Below, piece by piece: positions 21,001 through 27,000 of a DNA stretch of 64,000 bases; the stretch's first letter is position 1, and each line of letters starts with the position of its first letter. This DNA is from Carcharhinus longimanus (Eukaryota). Position numbers: made by a program. Where the stretch lies: the NCBI GenBank assembly GCA_030264375.1, contig JASCQW010000156.1, forward strand, positions 19,613,620 through 19,677,619, given 5' to 3'.

Positions 21001-24000
21001 ACTATGATTTTGATACTGCAAAATTGATGGCACGGTAACATATTTTATTGTGGGGTGGTGTAGCCTCGGCCTTGCNNNNNNNNNNGGGCCGGGGGGGGGG
21101 GGGGTGGGGGGGGCGGGGGGTAAGTGGTGGTATGCTTGAATGTGGTGGAGGAATTCCGTTCCTGCAGCCCAACAACCATATTGTGGGCATTTGCTTTTGT
21201 AGTTGGTTTGATGAATTCCAGCAAATTAATCTTGTGGAAAATGGCGGAACTGTGTGAGTTTAGCTTGTGGTGTTGAGGCAGTAGGTGGGGAAGTAGGTTG
21301 GCTGACCGCGTGTGGTTGAATATCAATGAGTTTGCTTTCCAATGGATGACGGTGAATTTATTGAATGCTTCTTGAATTATATCCATGATGATTGCTCGAG
21401 GCGTCGCAATAATACTCGTCAATTCTACATTGTAGATGTTGGACAGGATGTTAGGGAGGAGTCGGAATGTACAGAATGTGCATCCGAGCCTCTAATCTGC
21501 TGTTCCAGCGACAGTATTGATATAACTGACACTATTATGATTATAGCCAAGATGGACCATAAGAATTTTGATAAAGGTGAATTCAGTGATTCTATTGCCA
21601 ATTAATCTCAATGGATGAAGTTATTTTGTTTCTTCTCATGAAGCAGCTTGTGGCCTTACAATTCTCTGGCCAAAATGATGCTTACCATTTGTCAAGCCAA
21701 AGCGGGAAAATAAGGAGGATCTTGGATCCATTCAAGAGCTTGATAATCTAAGAAAACATCCACCACATAGTCCAGTTTCTAATCACTCACTAAATTAAGA
21801 ATGCAAAAATCATATTATTAGCTATAATGATCGACCATTACAGTGTGTTAATTGTATCCAGTTGAATCAAACATTTGCCAAATGAACAGATGAACCAATG
21901 GCATACAGTGATTGATGACATTATTCTAGATAAATGGAAGCAATGGTTAAGAGTGATTGAACTCAATACACAACACGACAATTTACGAGACGACATATGA
22001 CCAACGTGCAAATGGCATTATTTTTACAGTTGTCTTATTTAAGCCACTTCGAAATAATTAGTGGCATTAGGTCAGGTGGAGATTATTAGAAGAAGAAAGC
22101 TACGAAAAATTGGCTTCTGCTATGTTACCTGATCTTCTGCCTATTTTGTCTCGATCTGCTCAAATGGAGAAGTAAAGCAAATTAATCGTTCCAACACTTG
22201 AACCATCCCATAGAACGTGTCAAATTTCAAATAAAACCTCATTGATCTTCGTCAGAAATTCGCTTTCTTTTCAGGTAGCGTCTTTCCTTTTCAAACTTTC
22301 ATTACTATACCTCTCAATTTAAAATGGCTTTTTCCACAGTATTTTGATTTCAGTCTTGCCTAAATTAAATCTGTGCAATGCAAAGCCAATCGGAGTTAAT
22401 GGCTTCCAATTGAAAGAACACTTATTTTCAGGCCCTCCTCCGTTTTGGTGGTTAATAGCGTTACCGTTAAATTCGGACTCCCTTTTATTAAACAACAAAA
22501 CAGCAAATAATGCACTCTTTAGATTCATCCATGAGAAACGTATTTGCGAGCGACAGCAGAATCAATGCTCATTAGGAGTTGGAGGAGATCTCAATCCATG
22601 AATACGTGCAGATCATGCAGTGTCCAAATACCCAGATTGTCTTTTGTGTATGTGTTCTTTGAGATTGGCACAACAACTGTGATGCGTTGGCAATATATTG
22701 TAAGGTCGCTTGTTTTTGGCATGAGTTTGGAAGGCAGACATGAAGGATACCTAAGAATTCAGTACCTACAGGTCAGCATTAACGTGTTTTTAAAATGCTA
22801 TTGGAGTTATTTTGATAAATTTCAGCATACATTTTTTGTGCACAATAATGGAACAGTGTGACTTTGGATTGTGTAGTTGACGGGGAGGTGAGGCATTTCC
22901 GGATTGTTGTCCGACAGAGTGCCGATTAACGCCAAACCGTCTTCGATATTTCGGTTGGCGTTGTCGTTTTTCAGTGCTGTTGGAGTTATGTCTATCAGTG
23001 TGGTTGGAGGCTATTCTAGTTCACTACTGAACTGTGCATTGCAGATCGTCGGCAGTATTTTGGGGAATTTTCGGATGGAAAAGTAGTGATAACTTGTTCC
23101 ACGTTTCCTAGATTCTAATCTATTATTGTAGCCGCCGTATGTATAGGGCCTGACTTGACCTATTGGAGCCTAAGGGCCGGATCCGGGCCTAATATGGATC
23201 CGAGCCCGGAATCCTCGTACCAGCGCCGCTCTACGCTTCTTGCCAGCTCTGATACAATCCGCGCTGCGAGCGGGACGTGGCGCTGCCTGGATGTTCGTAT
23301 CTCTGAACTGCGCATGCGCAGTTCGAAGACAATCGTAGGCATCGCGCCCAGGCGCGCAGCTGCGGCCGTTTCTGCCTTCTGAAAGGTAGCTTCCTGCTGT
23401 GTATCCTGTGTCAGCGCCCCCAGGCGGAACAATTCCAATACAACATCAATAGTTCGCTTTGGAAGGCAGGTCTATGCCAGGCTGCATCTTGTTTTGGTGG
23501 TTCCACCTGAAGGTCCCAGAAGTCATATCAGATACAAGGAGCCTATAAAAAATATGATGCCAGTTGATGTTTCTCTTCTGCCGGAAGCTGAAAGGAAAAC
23601 ACGATTGTGCAAACGTGTTCCCAAAAGAGCTAGAACGAAAGAGAAGCAATTTGAAGATGAATTTAAAGTTGGCAATTATAGCAAATTCTGGACAAAGAAG
23701 TAGTCTTCAAAATTTTGGAGTTTAGAAACAACCATCACTGGGCTGCTTGACTGGTGTTGACGTCAGTGGAACTTTGACAAATGAACATGTTATTGTGATT
23801 CATTAATAAGTTGTGATTTTTTTTAATGATTCGACTCCATTTGTTTTATTAAAATGTGTTTCTACAGGAAGGATCCAGCGAATGAAAAAAGTCCTTGCTT
23901 TGTTTCTATTATTACATAGCTTAAGTGCACCGAGAAACTGATTTGAATGTTAATTAGGCAATATCCATTCACATGAATCCTGTGCCTCTGTTCCTGACTA

Positions 24001-27000
24001 TATCTGTGTGGATTTGACTTACGCATATTTAGTTGTTTGTGCGATGTATCATTTAGACCAGTAGGAGGGAAAAAAAAAACAAACAGTAAGCGGAGAGACT
24101 GGCAGTCTGACACAGATCATCCTCTGGGTGGGGGGAGATAGGAGCGCAGTTGGAACTCTGATTGGGTGGGGTACAGGAGGGGGCGCAGATGGATCTCTGG
24201 TTGGGGGGAGGAGGGAGCACAAATGGATCTCTTGCTGGGGGGTGGCCGGGAGGTCCGCTGCCACTTTGCGGGCAATCTCTCCTTCCCACCGGAGGAACGA
24301 ATCTCTCCTCCCGGAGTGGGCGTGCGGCCATGTCATCCCACCAAACCTTCAGGATCAAGTGATTCTTCGTTGAGGAAATGAAGCAAATCTGGCTGATTCC
24401 ACAATGGATCCGCATGAAAACCGGCAACAAGATCAGGGACAACTCCAAGAGGAGACACTGGAGAAGGATCAAGCTGGGCCTCGAAAGGGATACACCATCA
24501 CTGGTACAATGCCAGCCATAGCCATCTCTCCCGCTCTCTTGCCCCTACAGGGAAGAGTAATCTGTTGCTTATAGCGCAGTTCCGGAACGGACCCAAAGTC
24601 GGTAAAGTGCGATTTGGTGGTAGAGTTGGGCGCATGGTTCATTAAATTGACTTAAATGGATGCAAACACATGTAATTTGCCGGGCCGCCCAATTTCGCCC
24701 AAATCAGTTGTTGGTAAAGTCGCGATCTGCTCGGACTCAGGTGCAAATCGCGTTAATGGCCCAATGCCCAAATTTACCGCGATTTTTCGCCCGACGTTTT
24801 GGACAGGTTTTGGAGAGGAGTCGGATGGGCCAAGATTTGATAAACTCGTTCGAGGTTTCCTTGACTCTAATCAGCTGTTTCAGCCAGAGCATTCATATAG
24901 CTAGCACTGTTCATACCGTAGCCAAGTTCGATTGGCGATGGTATGGACTATTAACCTCAATGCATGAAAATTATGTATTTCTCCTCTAGGCTCAATTAGT
25001 TGGGTCACAATTCTTTGATCCGAATGCTACCTGTCACTTCTCAGTCAAACCTGGAGAATCAGGAGAATTTGATTTCCGTTAAGTATCTTGAAAATGATGA
25101 TAATCTCAGACAAATACACCACTTCCGTAGTGCGTGTTATCGGACAACAAATTTTCTGAAATTAGATATACAAAATGGAAACTAACTAAAGATACACTCA
25201 GAACCCCTCCACTAAAGATCACAAAGGAGCAGATCCAGACAGCCAGGCAAAGGTATGTTTTTAGAATGCAAATAAGGGCTAACATACAAAGGAAGCTGGA
25301 CAGAATGGCACCTATAGAAACTAAATTAAAGTACACCCCTATCTAATCAGCACCACGAACCTAATCATGTAAACCTCTATGGAGACACCTAAGAATTAAC
25401 ATAACTAAGGAAGCTTCCCTGGCTTCACAGACTTCCTAAAGTCAGTCAAACACCAACTGTTCAAACCCTGGAGATTCTAGACCATTGATAAACCCATCAG
25501 ATGGAAACAATTAACACGCACTTAAAAACATTGTTACAATGCTTGAAAACATCAAAACAGGGTGGTCAGGGTCAAATACTGTAAACAAAGCATTAGCATT
25601 TGAATTGTACAATGTATCAAAGTTCAGGTATAACTGTAGCCCATTGCGGCGGGCCTTTAGAGTGCTTTCGGGACAGCTCTGTATATCCTGACTGCACCTC
25701 CGTCGATGTTAAAAATAAAGCTGTACCGCTGTTGAACCTGACTGTGAGTCCGTAGTGGTCATGTCTGCCCACTCGCGCTAACAGTTTCAATTTGCATTGA
25801 GCACAAACTTCCCATTCTAAATTGCACCCATTCCACCACATCATCTAATGGCTTCTGGCGACGTCATCATAGCTATGCTTTCCCAAAAGTACTCATGGTG
25901 CCAGTCTGTCTTTGAAACTGCCAGAGCAGGAACAAAAGTGGAAAACTGGCCTCTCCGAACCTAACATGAGTGGCAGGGAACGCATCTTAAACTTCCCTTT
26001 GTGCTATGTCACATGGGGGTAAAGTGGGAGTGAATGGATGGTAGACGGAAAGTCTGCAATCTCCTCCAAGTCACTTACTCGTGCACTGACCCCAGGGTTA
26101 AGACCAGCAACAGACTATATGATAGTCAAGAAATGCTTGCTGGCTGTCGATCTAACAGTCCCATAGGCTCACAGTTGTTTGGCCACAGGTTGCATGAACC
26201 GAACTTCAATCTTGGTGCAGCTTTAACCCGGCACTGGGACTTTCTCCTGCACTGTCTCCGTTAGCCCATTCTATGTGTTTATCACTCTGAAAGAGTAAAG
26301 GAAAGGCAAGGTGTGGTCTTGGCCTGCTGCTGTAGTAGAGGACACAAGAGAAGGAGNNNNNNNNNNNNNNNNNNNNNNNNNNNNNNNNNNNNNNNNNNNN
26401 NNNNNNNNNNNNNNNNNNNNNNNNNNNNNNNNNNNNNNNNNNNNNNNNNNNNNNNNTAGGCCATCTAGCCCCTTGAGCCTGCCCCGCCATTCAATAAGAT
26501 CATGGCTGATCTGAAGTGGATCAATTCCACTTAACCGCTTGCTCCCCATAACCCTTAATTCCCTTATCGATCAGAAATCTATCTACCTGTGACTTAAACA
26601 TATTCAACGAGGTAACCTCCACCACTTCAATGGACAGAGAATTCCAGAGATTCACTACCCTCTGAGAGAAGAAGTTCGTCCTCAACTCTGGTCTAAACTA
26701 ACTCCCCCTTACTTTGAGGCTGTGCCCTCTAGTTCTGGTCTCCTTTCTAAGTGGAAAGAATCTCTCTACCTCTATCCTATCTAGCCCCTTCATTATCTCA
26801 TATGTCTCTATAAGATCACCCCTCATCCTTCTAAACTTCCAACAAGTACAGGCTCAATCTCTCCTCATAAGCCAACCCCCTCATCTCTGGTATCAACCTG
26901 GTGAACCTTCTCTGTACTCCCAATATATCCTTTTGCAAATAAGGGGATCAAAATTGCACACGGTTCATTCATTGTAAACTTCAGAGTCAAGCTCATGCAA

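What the first reader, a model, noticed from the sequence alone, without database searches (positions are those of the whole stretch)
23345..24520. Two different ribosomal-protein mRNAs (MRPL55 and RPL39) captured in tandem within one CpG-rich element
Seen: an intronless MRPL55 copy (23383-23703), with a probable 3' UTR containing ATTAAA near 23848 and an A-run at ~24070-24079. About 630 bp downstream, on the same strand, is an intronless RPL39 copy (24330-24485). Both interrupt the same GC-rich element. The RPL39 copy has no poly(A) tail, and the motif ATCTCTCC occurs on both sides of it (24275, 24301 and 24524). Known: LINE-mediated retrocopies usually carry poly(A) and TSDs, whereas RT template switching or DNA-repair capture gives tail-less inserts with microhomology. 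Inference: the composite element accumulates host mRNA cargo, and two independent captures within 1.2 kb suggest a hotspot.
Basis: partly seen in the sequence, partly recalled or inferred. Interest (0 to 1): 0.7.

Follow-up and report, generated by a model that had tools for sequence, protein, structure and literature searches.

The report
Two ribosomal-protein pseudogenes side by side
Two broken, intronless copies of ribosomal-protein genes (mitochondrial L55 and cytosolic L39) lie next to each other inside an intron of a shark's UBR4 gene; they look like ordinary dead retrocopies rather than cargo collected by a mobile element.

Summary
The sequence facts hold. An intronless copy of mitochondrial ribosomal protein L55 (mL55; whole coding region 23336-23703) and an intronless copy of ribosomal protein L39 (eL39; 24330-24485) lie 627 bp apart on the + strand. 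Both are disabled pseudogenes with similar decay. The window is from a shark: the best mL55 match is Mustelus, 75% identity. The pair sits in a UBR4 intron, in the same orientation as UBR4.

The "CpG-rich element" is larger than described. A ~6.8 kb domain (about 18400-25200) keeps its CpG (o/e 0.5-1.0 against 0.26 background). It consists of ~1.7 kb tandem units between two inverted ~650 bp repeats. Both pseudogenes lie in one ~1.6 kb stretch (about 23150-24798) with no detectable similarity to the units.

The mL55 copy has ATTAAA, an A-run 31 nt later and a weak candidate target-site duplication. The eL39 copy has no tail and no duplication, and the ATCTCTCC motif is at chance level.

Best reading: two ordinary LINE-made processed pseudogenes. 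A single complex capture event remains a live rival. I found no support for a cargo-accumulating element or a hotspot. No shark DNA collection was on hand, so junctions and other copies stay untested.

The parts
17757..27497 (+). UBR4 intron that holds everything below. It is flanked by the exons 17637-17756 and 27498-27773.
   Evidence: tblastn with the UBR4-like protein P0014: residues 718-757 at 17637-17756 and 809-902 at 27498-27773. Pfam E3_UBR4_N on single exon ORFs. Exons were examined one by one and not joined.
18400..25200 (.). Domain that is not CpG-depleted (CpG o/e 0.5-1.0; GC 35-55%).
   Evidence: 1-kb bins from 18001 to 25000 have o/e 0.66, 0.73, 0.83, 0.53, 0.83, 0.84 and 0.70. 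The median of all 64 bins is 0.26. Finer profile.
18548..19198 (+). Left arm of an inverted repeat pair.
   Evidence: blastn: 18548-19198 matches 25783-25135 at 73.7% over 669 columns, E=1e-108. Outer ends are fuzzy and no target-site duplication was seen.
19221..20990 (+). Tandem unit A (~1.77 kb, non-coding).
   Evidence: Matches to unit B: 19221-19296 to 20991-21065, 19367-20251 to 21186-22047 (65%), and 20428-20841 to 22081-22489 (73%). No Pfam hit.
20991..22699 (+). Tandem unit B. It contains a 10-N run at 21076-21085 next to a long G-run.
22700..23149 (+). Tandem unit C, cut short soon after the 'ctaatc' landmark (23114-23120).
   Evidence: 22774-23105 against unit A gives z=13.5. An nhmmer profile of A, B and D matches 23097-23149 (envelope to 23170, E=3.5e-4) and nothing further on.
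23150..24798 (+). Non-array block (ends +/-20 bp) that holds both pseudogenes.
   Evidence: All six sub-segments have no similarity to units A or B (z -0.9 to 1.2). Three nhmmer profiles of the units hit only its two edges. No copy elsewhere in the window.
23150..23335 (+). CpG-rich 5' flank. It is either the 5' leader of the mL55 mRNA or unassigned DNA. It contains a perfect 20-nt palindrome at 23305-23324.
   Evidence: CpG o/e about 1.0. GCGCATGCGC occurs only here in the window. Not similar to units, to the exon-1 region (148 of 500 shuffles) or to upstream-extended Heptranchias models. The likeness of the palindrome core to an NRF1 site is recalled, not tested.
23336..23703 (+). mL55 (MRPL55) processed pseudogene, whole coding region. 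Disabled by a lost initiator, one in-frame stop, one frameshift, one 6-codon gap and one 1-codon gap.
   Evidence: It differs at 12 of 66 columns that are invariant in 10 elasmobranch mL55 proteins.
23704..23891 (+). Probable mL55 3' UTR, with ATTAAA at 23848-23853 and an A6 remnant at 23885-23890.
   Evidence: The assignment as UTR is inferred, because no shark mRNA was available.
23106..23127 (+). Candidate target-site duplication, 5' copy.
   Evidence: 16 of 22 identical to 23892-23913. 2 of 300 shuffles reach this, but a gapped local test of wider zones is not significant (189 of 1000). Unit homology also runs about 22 nt past its end.
23892..23913 (+). Candidate target-site duplication, 3' copy, directly after the A6 run.
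   Evidence: (family D3).
23914..24112 (+). Unassigned stretch containing A10 at 24070-24079.
   Evidence: No significant similarity to the expected continuation of the unit. No polyadenylation hexamer lies just before the A10. The best flank match after the A10 is 13 of 22, reached by 168 of 300 shuffles.
24113..24253 (+). G-rich minisatellite (period 34-39, about 3.4 copies).
   Evidence: TRF 24122-24242, score 113, the only array in the window scoring 80 or more. The repeat finder families D1 and D2.
24274..24329 (+). Two copies of a pyrimidine-rich motif followed by the eL39 5' leader. The leader probably starts about 24303 with a C plus pyrimidine tract.
   Evidence: Read. The terminal-oligopyrimidine reading is established knowledge about ribosomal-protein mRNAs and is inferred here.
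24330..24485 (+). eL39 (RPL39) processed pseudogene, whole coding region. Disabled by one in-frame stop and a lost terminator.
   Evidence: eL39 chains, E=1.5e-14; Pfam Ribosomal_L39, E=2.3e-14. It differs at 12 of 48 columns that are invariant in 12 vertebrate eL39 proteins.
24486..24798 (+). CpG-rich 3' flank, unassigned. No A-run of 6 or more; ATTAAA at 24641.
24799..25134 (+). Tandem unit D (partial), with the 'ctaatc' landmark at 24865.
   Evidence: nhmmer profile of A, B and C matches 24799-24889 (E=1.1e-9). 24865-25135 against unit A gives z=18.8. blastn 19800-19957 to 24952-25111.
25135..25783 (-). Right arm of the inverted repeat pair.

Best explanation
These are two dead processed pseudogenes of abundant housekeeping mRNAs, mitochondrial ribosomal protein L55 (mL55) and ribosomal protein L39 (eL39). 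LINE reverse-transcriptase machinery made them and inserted them head-to-tail in a UBR4 intron of a shark.

I take them to be two separate insertions of about the same period.
- The mL55 copy has the ordinary layout: leader, full coding region, 3' UTR with ATTAAA, an A-run remnant and a weak candidate target-site duplication.
- The eL39 copy is full-length at its 5' end. It has lost, or never had, a recognisable 3' UTR end, tail and duplication.

Both lie in a ~1.6 kb stretch of non-array DNA. That stretch interrupts a tandem array which is not CpG-depleted. Neither copy can make a protein.

Shown: identity, intronless state, disablement, similar decay, position, and the structure of the array. 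Inferred: the LINE mechanism, separate arrival, and the meaning of the flanks.
For: Identity and intronless continuity. An exon 1/2 junction falls inside the continuous copy, as inferred from the two Heptranchias isoforms P0011 and P0012 that diverge there.

Disablement and relaxed constraint:
- The mL55 copy is 66-75% identical to orthologues that are 81-98% identical to each other. It differs at 12 of 66 invariant columns.
- The eL39 copy differs at 12 of 48 invariant columns.

Ordinary features of the mL55 copy:
- ATTAAA at 23848 with A6 31 nt downstream.
- A 16-of-22 match between 23106-23127 and the 22 nt directly after that A-run, reached by 2 of 300 shuffles.

No sign of amplification or cargo collecting:
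- No second copy in the window.
- No cDNA-like content in units A, B or D.
- No near-identical predicted proteins.

Background: a preprint I read in passages reports 14,081 retrocopies in cartilaginous-fish genomes, 95.7% of them species-specific and with the lowest share of intact ORFs (10.64898/2026.06.26.734816).
Against: - Two unrelated retrocopies 627 bp apart on one strand are unlikely by chance. My rough estimate is a fraction of one such pair per genome. It assumes about a thousand retrocopies in 3-4 Gb, and neither figure was given per genome in what I read.
- No array-derived sequence is detectable between the two copies or in either flank, as if the whole 1.6 kb came as one piece.
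- Their decay is indistinguishable (Fisher p=0.49).
- The eL39 copy has no tail or duplication.
- The candidate duplication for mL55 is weak. It is not significant in a gapped test (189 of 1000), unit homology continues about 22 nt beyond its 5' copy, and no unit sequence follows its 3' copy.
- Sharks are dominated by CR1-type LINEs (PMC8455134, passages). From recalled knowledge, these rarely copy polyadenylated mRNAs.
Confidence: 0.5

Rival explanations
1. One complex event. A break in the tandem array was patched by capture of several reverse-transcribed pieces: mL55 mRNA, eL39 mRNA and unassigned filler. The route would be template switching of a LINE reverse transcriptase or endonuclease-independent repair, with loss of about one unit length of array.
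For: - The whole stretch from about 23150 to 24798 is foreign to the array, with no unit sequence inside it.
- The landmark-to-landmark distance across it (23110 to 24865, 1755 bp) equals a unit period (1810 and 1617 bp elsewhere, read). About 1.6 kb of array therefore seems to have been replaced.
- The copies share an orientation and show equal decay.
- The eL39 copy is tail-less and has no duplication.
- Unassigned flanks of 186 and 313 bp and a new minisatellite recall what Sen et al. describe at non-classical L1 insertions. There, extra nucleotides of 4-312 bp occur at 15 of 21 loci, with captured cellular RNA fragments, target deletions and simple repeats at junctions (PMC1920257, section 11 read).
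- Double template jumps are documented (PMC2104539, abstract).
Against: - Known template-switch chimeras are direct fusions with a tail on the 3' part and duplications around the whole. Here 626 bp separate the coding regions, the 3' part has no tail, and the best whole-block flank matches are at chance (a 9-mer at 23316 and 24574 where about 1.8 are expected by my calculation; 16 of 22 at 23243 and 24495, reached by 12 of 300 shuffles).
- The mL55 copy has its own signal, A-run and candidate duplication.
- Capture of two different mRNAs at one break would be very rare.
Confidence: 0.27
2. The ~7.2 kb stretch between the inverted repeats (18548-25783) is a mobile composite element that picks up host cDNAs, and the pseudogenes travel and multiply with it.
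For: - ~650 bp inverted repeats bracket the array.
- The whole stretch keeps its CpG, as a recently arrived or unmethylated element would.
- Both retrocopies lie inside it.
Against: - The arms are only 74% alike, with fuzzy outer ends and no target-site duplication.
- There is no transposase or other protein domain in it.
- There is no other copy of the arms, the units or the block in the window.
- The sister units carry no cargo.
- No amplified clade is visible among predicted proteins.
- One locus cannot show accumulation.
Confidence: 0.08
3. DNA-level import. A segment that already held both pseudogenes elsewhere in the genome was copied into the array by duplication, gene conversion or repair synthesis.
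For: - It is one contiguous foreign block with unassigned flanks.
- Sen et al. report inter-chromosomal filler of up to 267 bp at repair junctions (PMC1920257, section 11).
Against: No donor locus can be looked for with the tools on hand. This only moves the question of adjacency to another place.
Confidence: 0.1
4. Working retrogenes, or an assembly or cDNA-contamination artefact.
For: The CpG-rich leader with a promoter-like palindrome sits just upstream of the mL55 start position. The assembly is a draft with 19 N runs.
Against: - Both reading frames are broken and changed at otherwise invariant residues. Contaminating cDNA would be intact.
- The contig between the gaps (17597-26356) also carries a UBR4 exon.
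Confidence: 0.03

Closest known systems
LINE-mediated processed pseudogenes of ribosomal-protein genes
   Same: Intronless, full coding region, disabled, derived from very abundant housekeeping mRNAs. The mL55 copy has a polyadenylation signal, an A-run and a possible target-site duplication.
   Different: The eL39 copy has no tail or duplication. The two copies lie 627 bp apart on one strand, in a block with unassigned CpG-rich flanks. The host genome is CR1-dominated rather than L1-dominated (PMC8455134, passages).
Chimeric retrogenes made by reverse-transcriptase template switching (bipartite and tripartite; PMC2104539, abstract read)
   Same: Copies of different transcripts in the same orientation at one site.
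   Different: Those are direct fusions with short direct repeats around the whole, and the 3' part is a LINE or SINE or carries the tail. Here there are long spacers, no tail at the 3' part and no convincing flanking repeats.
Endonuclease-independent (non-classical) LINE insertions at DNA breaks (PMC1920257, abstract and section 11 read)
   Same: No target-site duplication, missing 3' end, extra unassigned nucleotides on both sides, apparent loss of target DNA, a simple repeat at a junction.
   Different: No LINE sequence is present in the block. No pre-insertion allele is available, so the deletion is inferred only from the repeat period.
Macrosatellites with an embedded retrogene, such as D4Z4 with DUX4 (PMC5849414, abstract read)
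   Same: Kilobase-scale, CpG-retaining tandem repeat that holds an intronless gene copy.
   Different: There the retrogene is in each unit and is functional. Here only one of four units is affected and both copies are dead.

Membership tests
Processed pseudogene (retrocopy) | Uninterrupted copy of a spliced mRNA of a multi-exon parent gene | tested here: met
   The mL55 copy is continuous over all 129 codons in two frames, across an exon junction inferred from isoforms P0011 and P0012. The eL39 copy is continuous over 51 codons. The parent gene structures in this species could not be read.
Processed pseudogene (retrocopy) | Poly(A) tract at the 3' end | tested here: inconclusive
   mL55: A6 lies 31 nt after ATTAAA, and A10 lies 180 nt further on. 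eL39: no A-run of 6 or more from 24486 to 25140.
Processed pseudogene (retrocopy) | Target-site duplications | tested here: inconclusive
   mL55: 16 of 22, reached by 2 of 300 shuffles, but 189 of 1000 in a gapped test. eL39: best matches are reached by 82 to 182 of 300 shuffles.
Processed pseudogene (retrocopy) | Disabling changes and relaxed constraint | tested here: met
   mL55: lost initiator, 1 stop, 1 frameshift, 2 in-frame gaps, and 12 of 66 invariant columns changed. eL39: 1 stop, lost terminator, and 12 of 48 invariant columns changed.
Template-switch chimeric retrogene | Direct fusion of the two transcript copies | tested here: not met
   626 bp lie between the mL55 stop and the eL39 start. 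They include about 390 bp that are assigned to neither.
Template-switch chimeric retrogene | Tail on the 3' part and direct repeats around the whole | tested here: not met
   No tail after eL39. Whole-block flank matches are at or near chance.
Endonuclease-independent, break-repair insertion | No duplication, 3' truncation, extra nucleotides | tested here: met
   This holds for the eL39 side and for the block as a whole.
Endonuclease-independent, break-repair insertion | Deletion of target DNA, shown against a pre-insertion allele | not testable with these tools
   Only inferred from the preserved repeat period. No related shark genome could be searched.
Cargo-carrying mobile element | Defined termini with target-site duplication | tested here: not met
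   The inverted arms are 74% alike, with fuzzy ends and no duplication.
Cargo-carrying mobile element | Several genomic copies, with the same or different cargo | not testable with these tools
   None in the 64 kb window. There was no shark DNA collection. The protein-level proxy was negative.
Macrosatellite with embedded retrogene (D4Z4 type) | Retrogene present in each repeat unit | tested here: not met
   Units A, B and D have no mL55 or eL39 similarity and no Pfam domain.

The most novel reading that the evidence does not exclude
A single repair or retro-insertion event stitched two different host mRNAs (mL55 and eL39) plus filler into a break in a kilobase-unit tandem array that is not CpG-depleted and is probably unmethylated in the germline, replacing about one unit. 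It would have happened in a genome whose dominant LINEs are not expected to copy polyadenylated mRNAs. That would be a multi-mRNA capture outside the mammalian L1 setting.
Probability: 0.25. Interest if true: 0.5.

Novelty: new member of a known kind. Interest (0 to 1): 0.3.

Why it matters
As it stands, this is an ordinary pair of dead ribosomal-protein retrocopies and matters little.

Two things could make it more useful.
- If comparison with related sharks showed that both copies arrived in one step, the locus would document multi-template cDNA capture in a CR1-dominated vertebrate genome.
- The surrounding 6.8 kb intronic array has kept its CpG although its units are 27-40% diverged. That points to long-term protection from germline methylation, which may deserve a look in its own right.

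Tried and rejected
- Second copies of the block, the flanks, the units or the inverted arms elsewhere in the window: none found.
- Rfam: no family in the window at gathering score, and none in 18400-25900 at E up to 1. No tRNA. So there is no snRNA, SINE-head or similar partner of a chimera.
- Extending unit homology into the flanks. A MAFFT alignment suggested it by eye, but shuffle controls and profiles rejected it.
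- The 65-bp overlap 23058-23120 / 24808-24872 as a long, young target duplication. Rejected: these two are no closer to each other (60-66%) than B is to D (67-69%).
- The 9-mer GCGCAGTTC at 23316 and 24574 as a duplication around the whole. This is at chance level, and the 3' copy sits where the MAFFT alignment (by eye) places the start of unit D; shuffle controls and profiles do not confirm unit D before about 24779.
- A second upstream copy of the mL55 exon-1 region, hinted by tblastn at E about 0.02: not supported at DNA level (148 of 500 shuffles).
- The 5' flank as a leader shared with upstream-extended Heptranchias models: no match.
- The missing UBR4 exon hiding in the tandem units: a weak hit (E=0.017) contains a stop and is not repeated with full-length queries.
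- Species identification through a UBR4 exon: the search reaches only proteins of up to 2000 residues and returned reptile and bird fragments.
- A virus-like coding stretch: Pfam found none. The scans covered 137 ORFs of 75 aa or more, 65 ORFs of 45-74 aa in the domain and 150 of 153 ORFs of 55-74 aa elsewhere.

Full report
**What the window is.** The window is a draft-quality vertebrate sequence with 19 runs of N. I left those runs as they stand. It is not human. The mL55 copy matches shark and ray mL55 proteins best (Mustelus asterias 75%, Scyliorhinus canicula 73%, Carcharodon 71%; 13 proteins at E up to 0.001 among 15 candidates). The solved mammalian mL55 chains (pig and human among them) match far more weakly (E=1.4e-17 and 1e-15 over the same stretch). 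Exons of the ubiquitin ligase UBR4 run along the + strand from about 368 to at least 53139 (Pfam on single exon ORFs; tblastn with the partial UBR4-like protein P0014). I examined these exons one by one and did not join them into a spliced model. The finding lies in the intron between the exons 17637-17756 and 27498-27773, in the same orientation as UBR4.

**Check of the observation.**
- Window 23383-23700 translates without interruption into an mL55 domain (Pfam Mitoc_L55 E=2.6e-25; pig mL55 4v19_4 E=1.4e-17).
The N-terminal presequence is present upstream in a second frame, from codon 2 at 23339. All 129 codons are therefore represented without an intron.
- Two Heptranchias isoforms (P0011, P0012) diverge at a point inside this continuous stretch. 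This marks an exon junction that the copy crosses.
- The mL55 copy is disabled by a lost initiator, one in-frame stop, one frameshift, one six-codon gap and one one-codon gap.
- Window 24330-24485 is a complete 51-codon eL39 copy with one internal stop and no terminator.
There is also an A6 at 23885-23890.

**Age and constraint.**
- The mL55 copy is 66-75% identical to ten elasmobranch orthologues. Those orthologues are 81-98% identical to each other.
- It differs at 12 of 66 columns that are invariant among them.
- The eL39 copy differs at 12 of 48 columns that are invariant in twelve vertebrate eL39 proteins.
- The two proportions do not differ (Fisher p=0.49).
- Both are old pseudogenes of similar age.
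- The mL55 copy shares several residues with the Mustelus protein alone. This suggests that the parent gene belonged to a related shark lineage.

**The surroundings.**
- CpG o/e has a median of 0.26 over the 64 one-kilobase bins of the window. It is 0.53-0.84 in the seven bins from 18001 to 25000. In finer windows it reaches about 1.0 just upstream of the mL55 copy and just downstream of the eL39 copy.
- This domain has structure. An inverted repeat pair (18548-19198 and 25135-25783, 74% over 669 columns) brackets tandem units of about 1.7 kb.
- The units are A (19221-20990), B (20991-22699), C (from 22700) and D (ending at 25134). They are 65-73% alike where they align.
- None of them has a Pfam domain, an Rfam match or another copy in the window.
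- With shuffle controls, C is clearly homologous to A up to about 23105 (z=13.5) and D from about 24865 (z=18.8).
- Profiles built from the units match the region between only at its edges: 23097-23149 and 24799-24889.
- All six sub-segments of 23136-24780 (5' flank, mL55 coding region, UTR-like part, linker, eL39, 3' flank) are no more similar to units A and B than shuffled sequence (z -0.9 to 1.2).
- Both pseudogenes and both CpG-rich flanks therefore form one contiguous stretch of about 1.6 kb that is foreign to the array.
- The distance between the 'ctaatc' landmark of unit C (23110) and that of unit D (24865) is 1755 bp. The spacings between earlier units are 1810 and 1617 bp (read). The foreign stretch therefore occupies about the space of the missing unit sequence.

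**Junctions.**
- *mL55 copy.* ATTAAA is followed 31 nt later by A6. The 22 nt directly after that (23892-23913) match 23106-23127 at 16 of 22 positions. Only 2 of 300 shuffles reach this. It is a candidate target-site duplication, and 23106-23127 lies close to where unit homology ends.
- *Why that candidate is weak.* A gapped local test of wider zones is not significant (189 of 1000). Unit homology continues about 22 nt past the 5' copy. No unit sequence is detectable after the 3' copy.
- *A10 at 24070.* It has no hexamer before it and no flank match (13 of 22, reached by 168 of 300 shuffles).
- *eL39 copy.* It begins after a C plus pyrimidine tract, as ribosomal-protein mRNAs do (established knowledge, inferred here). 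It has no A-run of 6 or more within 650 bp downstream. Its ATCTCTCC-based flank match is reached by 82 to 182 of 300 shuffles.
- *Between the two copies.* A G-rich minisatellite lies at 24113-24253. It is the only tandem array in the window scoring 80 or more.

**Interpretation.**
- I favour two ordinary LINE-made processed pseudogenes (0.5). The mL55 copy shows the usual parts, and old retrocopies often lose tails and duplications.
- Retrocopies are not rare in cartilaginous fishes: 14,081 in the genomes of one preprint, 95.7% of them species-specific (passages read).
- A single complex event remains a serious rival (0.27). The block is contiguous, the copies are equally decayed and co-oriented, the eL39 copy is tail-less, and about a unit of array seems replaced.
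- These features resemble non-classical L1 insertions at breaks, which have extra nucleotides, captured RNA fragments, deletions and junction repeats (PMC1920257, section 11).
- Against a textbook template-switch chimera: the parts are not fused directly, the 3' part has no tail, and no convincing repeats flank the whole (compare PMC2104539, abstract).
Those arms lack sharp ends and a duplication. The sister units carry nothing. No amplified relatives appear among predicted proteins.
- That last test is weak, because pseudogenes are seldom predicted as proteins.

**What stayed open.**
- No shark genome or transcript collection could be searched. The only open DNA collection holds bacteria and archaea, and I did not use it.
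- The ends of the parent mRNAs, the state of the orthologous intron in other sharks and the copy number of the block, units and arms are therefore unknown.
- I found no virus-like or transposon protein domain in the 352 ORFs scanned. Three further ORFs of 55-74 aa (of the 153 outside the domain listed) were not sent, and shorter ORFs outside the domain were not scanned.
- I repaired or joined nothing.
- Why the array has kept its CpG despite 27-40% divergence between units is unexplained.

Noticed in passing
window 18400-25200: A ~6.8 kb intronic domain keeps its CpG (o/e 0.5-1.0 against a window median of 0.26). This holds although its ~1.7 kb tandem units are 27-40% diverged from each other, which suggests long-term protection from germline methylation. 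No coding or RNA-family content was found.
   Followed up: partly
window 18548-19198 and 25135-25783: An inverted repeat pair, 74% identical over about 650 bp, brackets the tandem array. Its outer ends are fuzzy, no target-site duplication was seen, and there is no other copy in the window.
   Followed up: partly
window 23305-23324: A perfect 20-nt palindrome whose core GCGCATGCGC occurs only here in the 64 kb. It lies 12 nt upstream of the position of the mL55 start codon. It resembles an NRF1 binding site (recalled, not tested).
   Followed up: no
window 17925-18123 (also 9491-9683, 50782-50892, 35635-35719): An interspersed repeat with four copies in the window (76-81% identity). It lies just before the CpG-rich domain. 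Its type was not determined.
   Followed up: no
window 17757-27497: The exon or exons for residues 758-808 of the UBR4-like protein P0014 were not found between the flanking exons. They may lie in the N run at 26357-26456 or be too diverged to detect.
   Followed up: partly
window 21076-21130: A 10-N run in unit B is followed directly by a ~40 nt run made almost entirely of G. This looks like a hard-to-sequence spot in the assembly.
   Followed up: no
window 54001-57000 and 30001-32000: Strongly negative GC skew (down to -0.42) over several kilobases. ORFs there gave no Pfam hit.
   Followed up: no
window 53280-53534 (-): A weak Pfam match to an arterivirus proteinase family (E=0.0022, 18.4 bits against a cut-off of 22.1) among 137 ORFs. 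I take it for chance.
   Followed up: no
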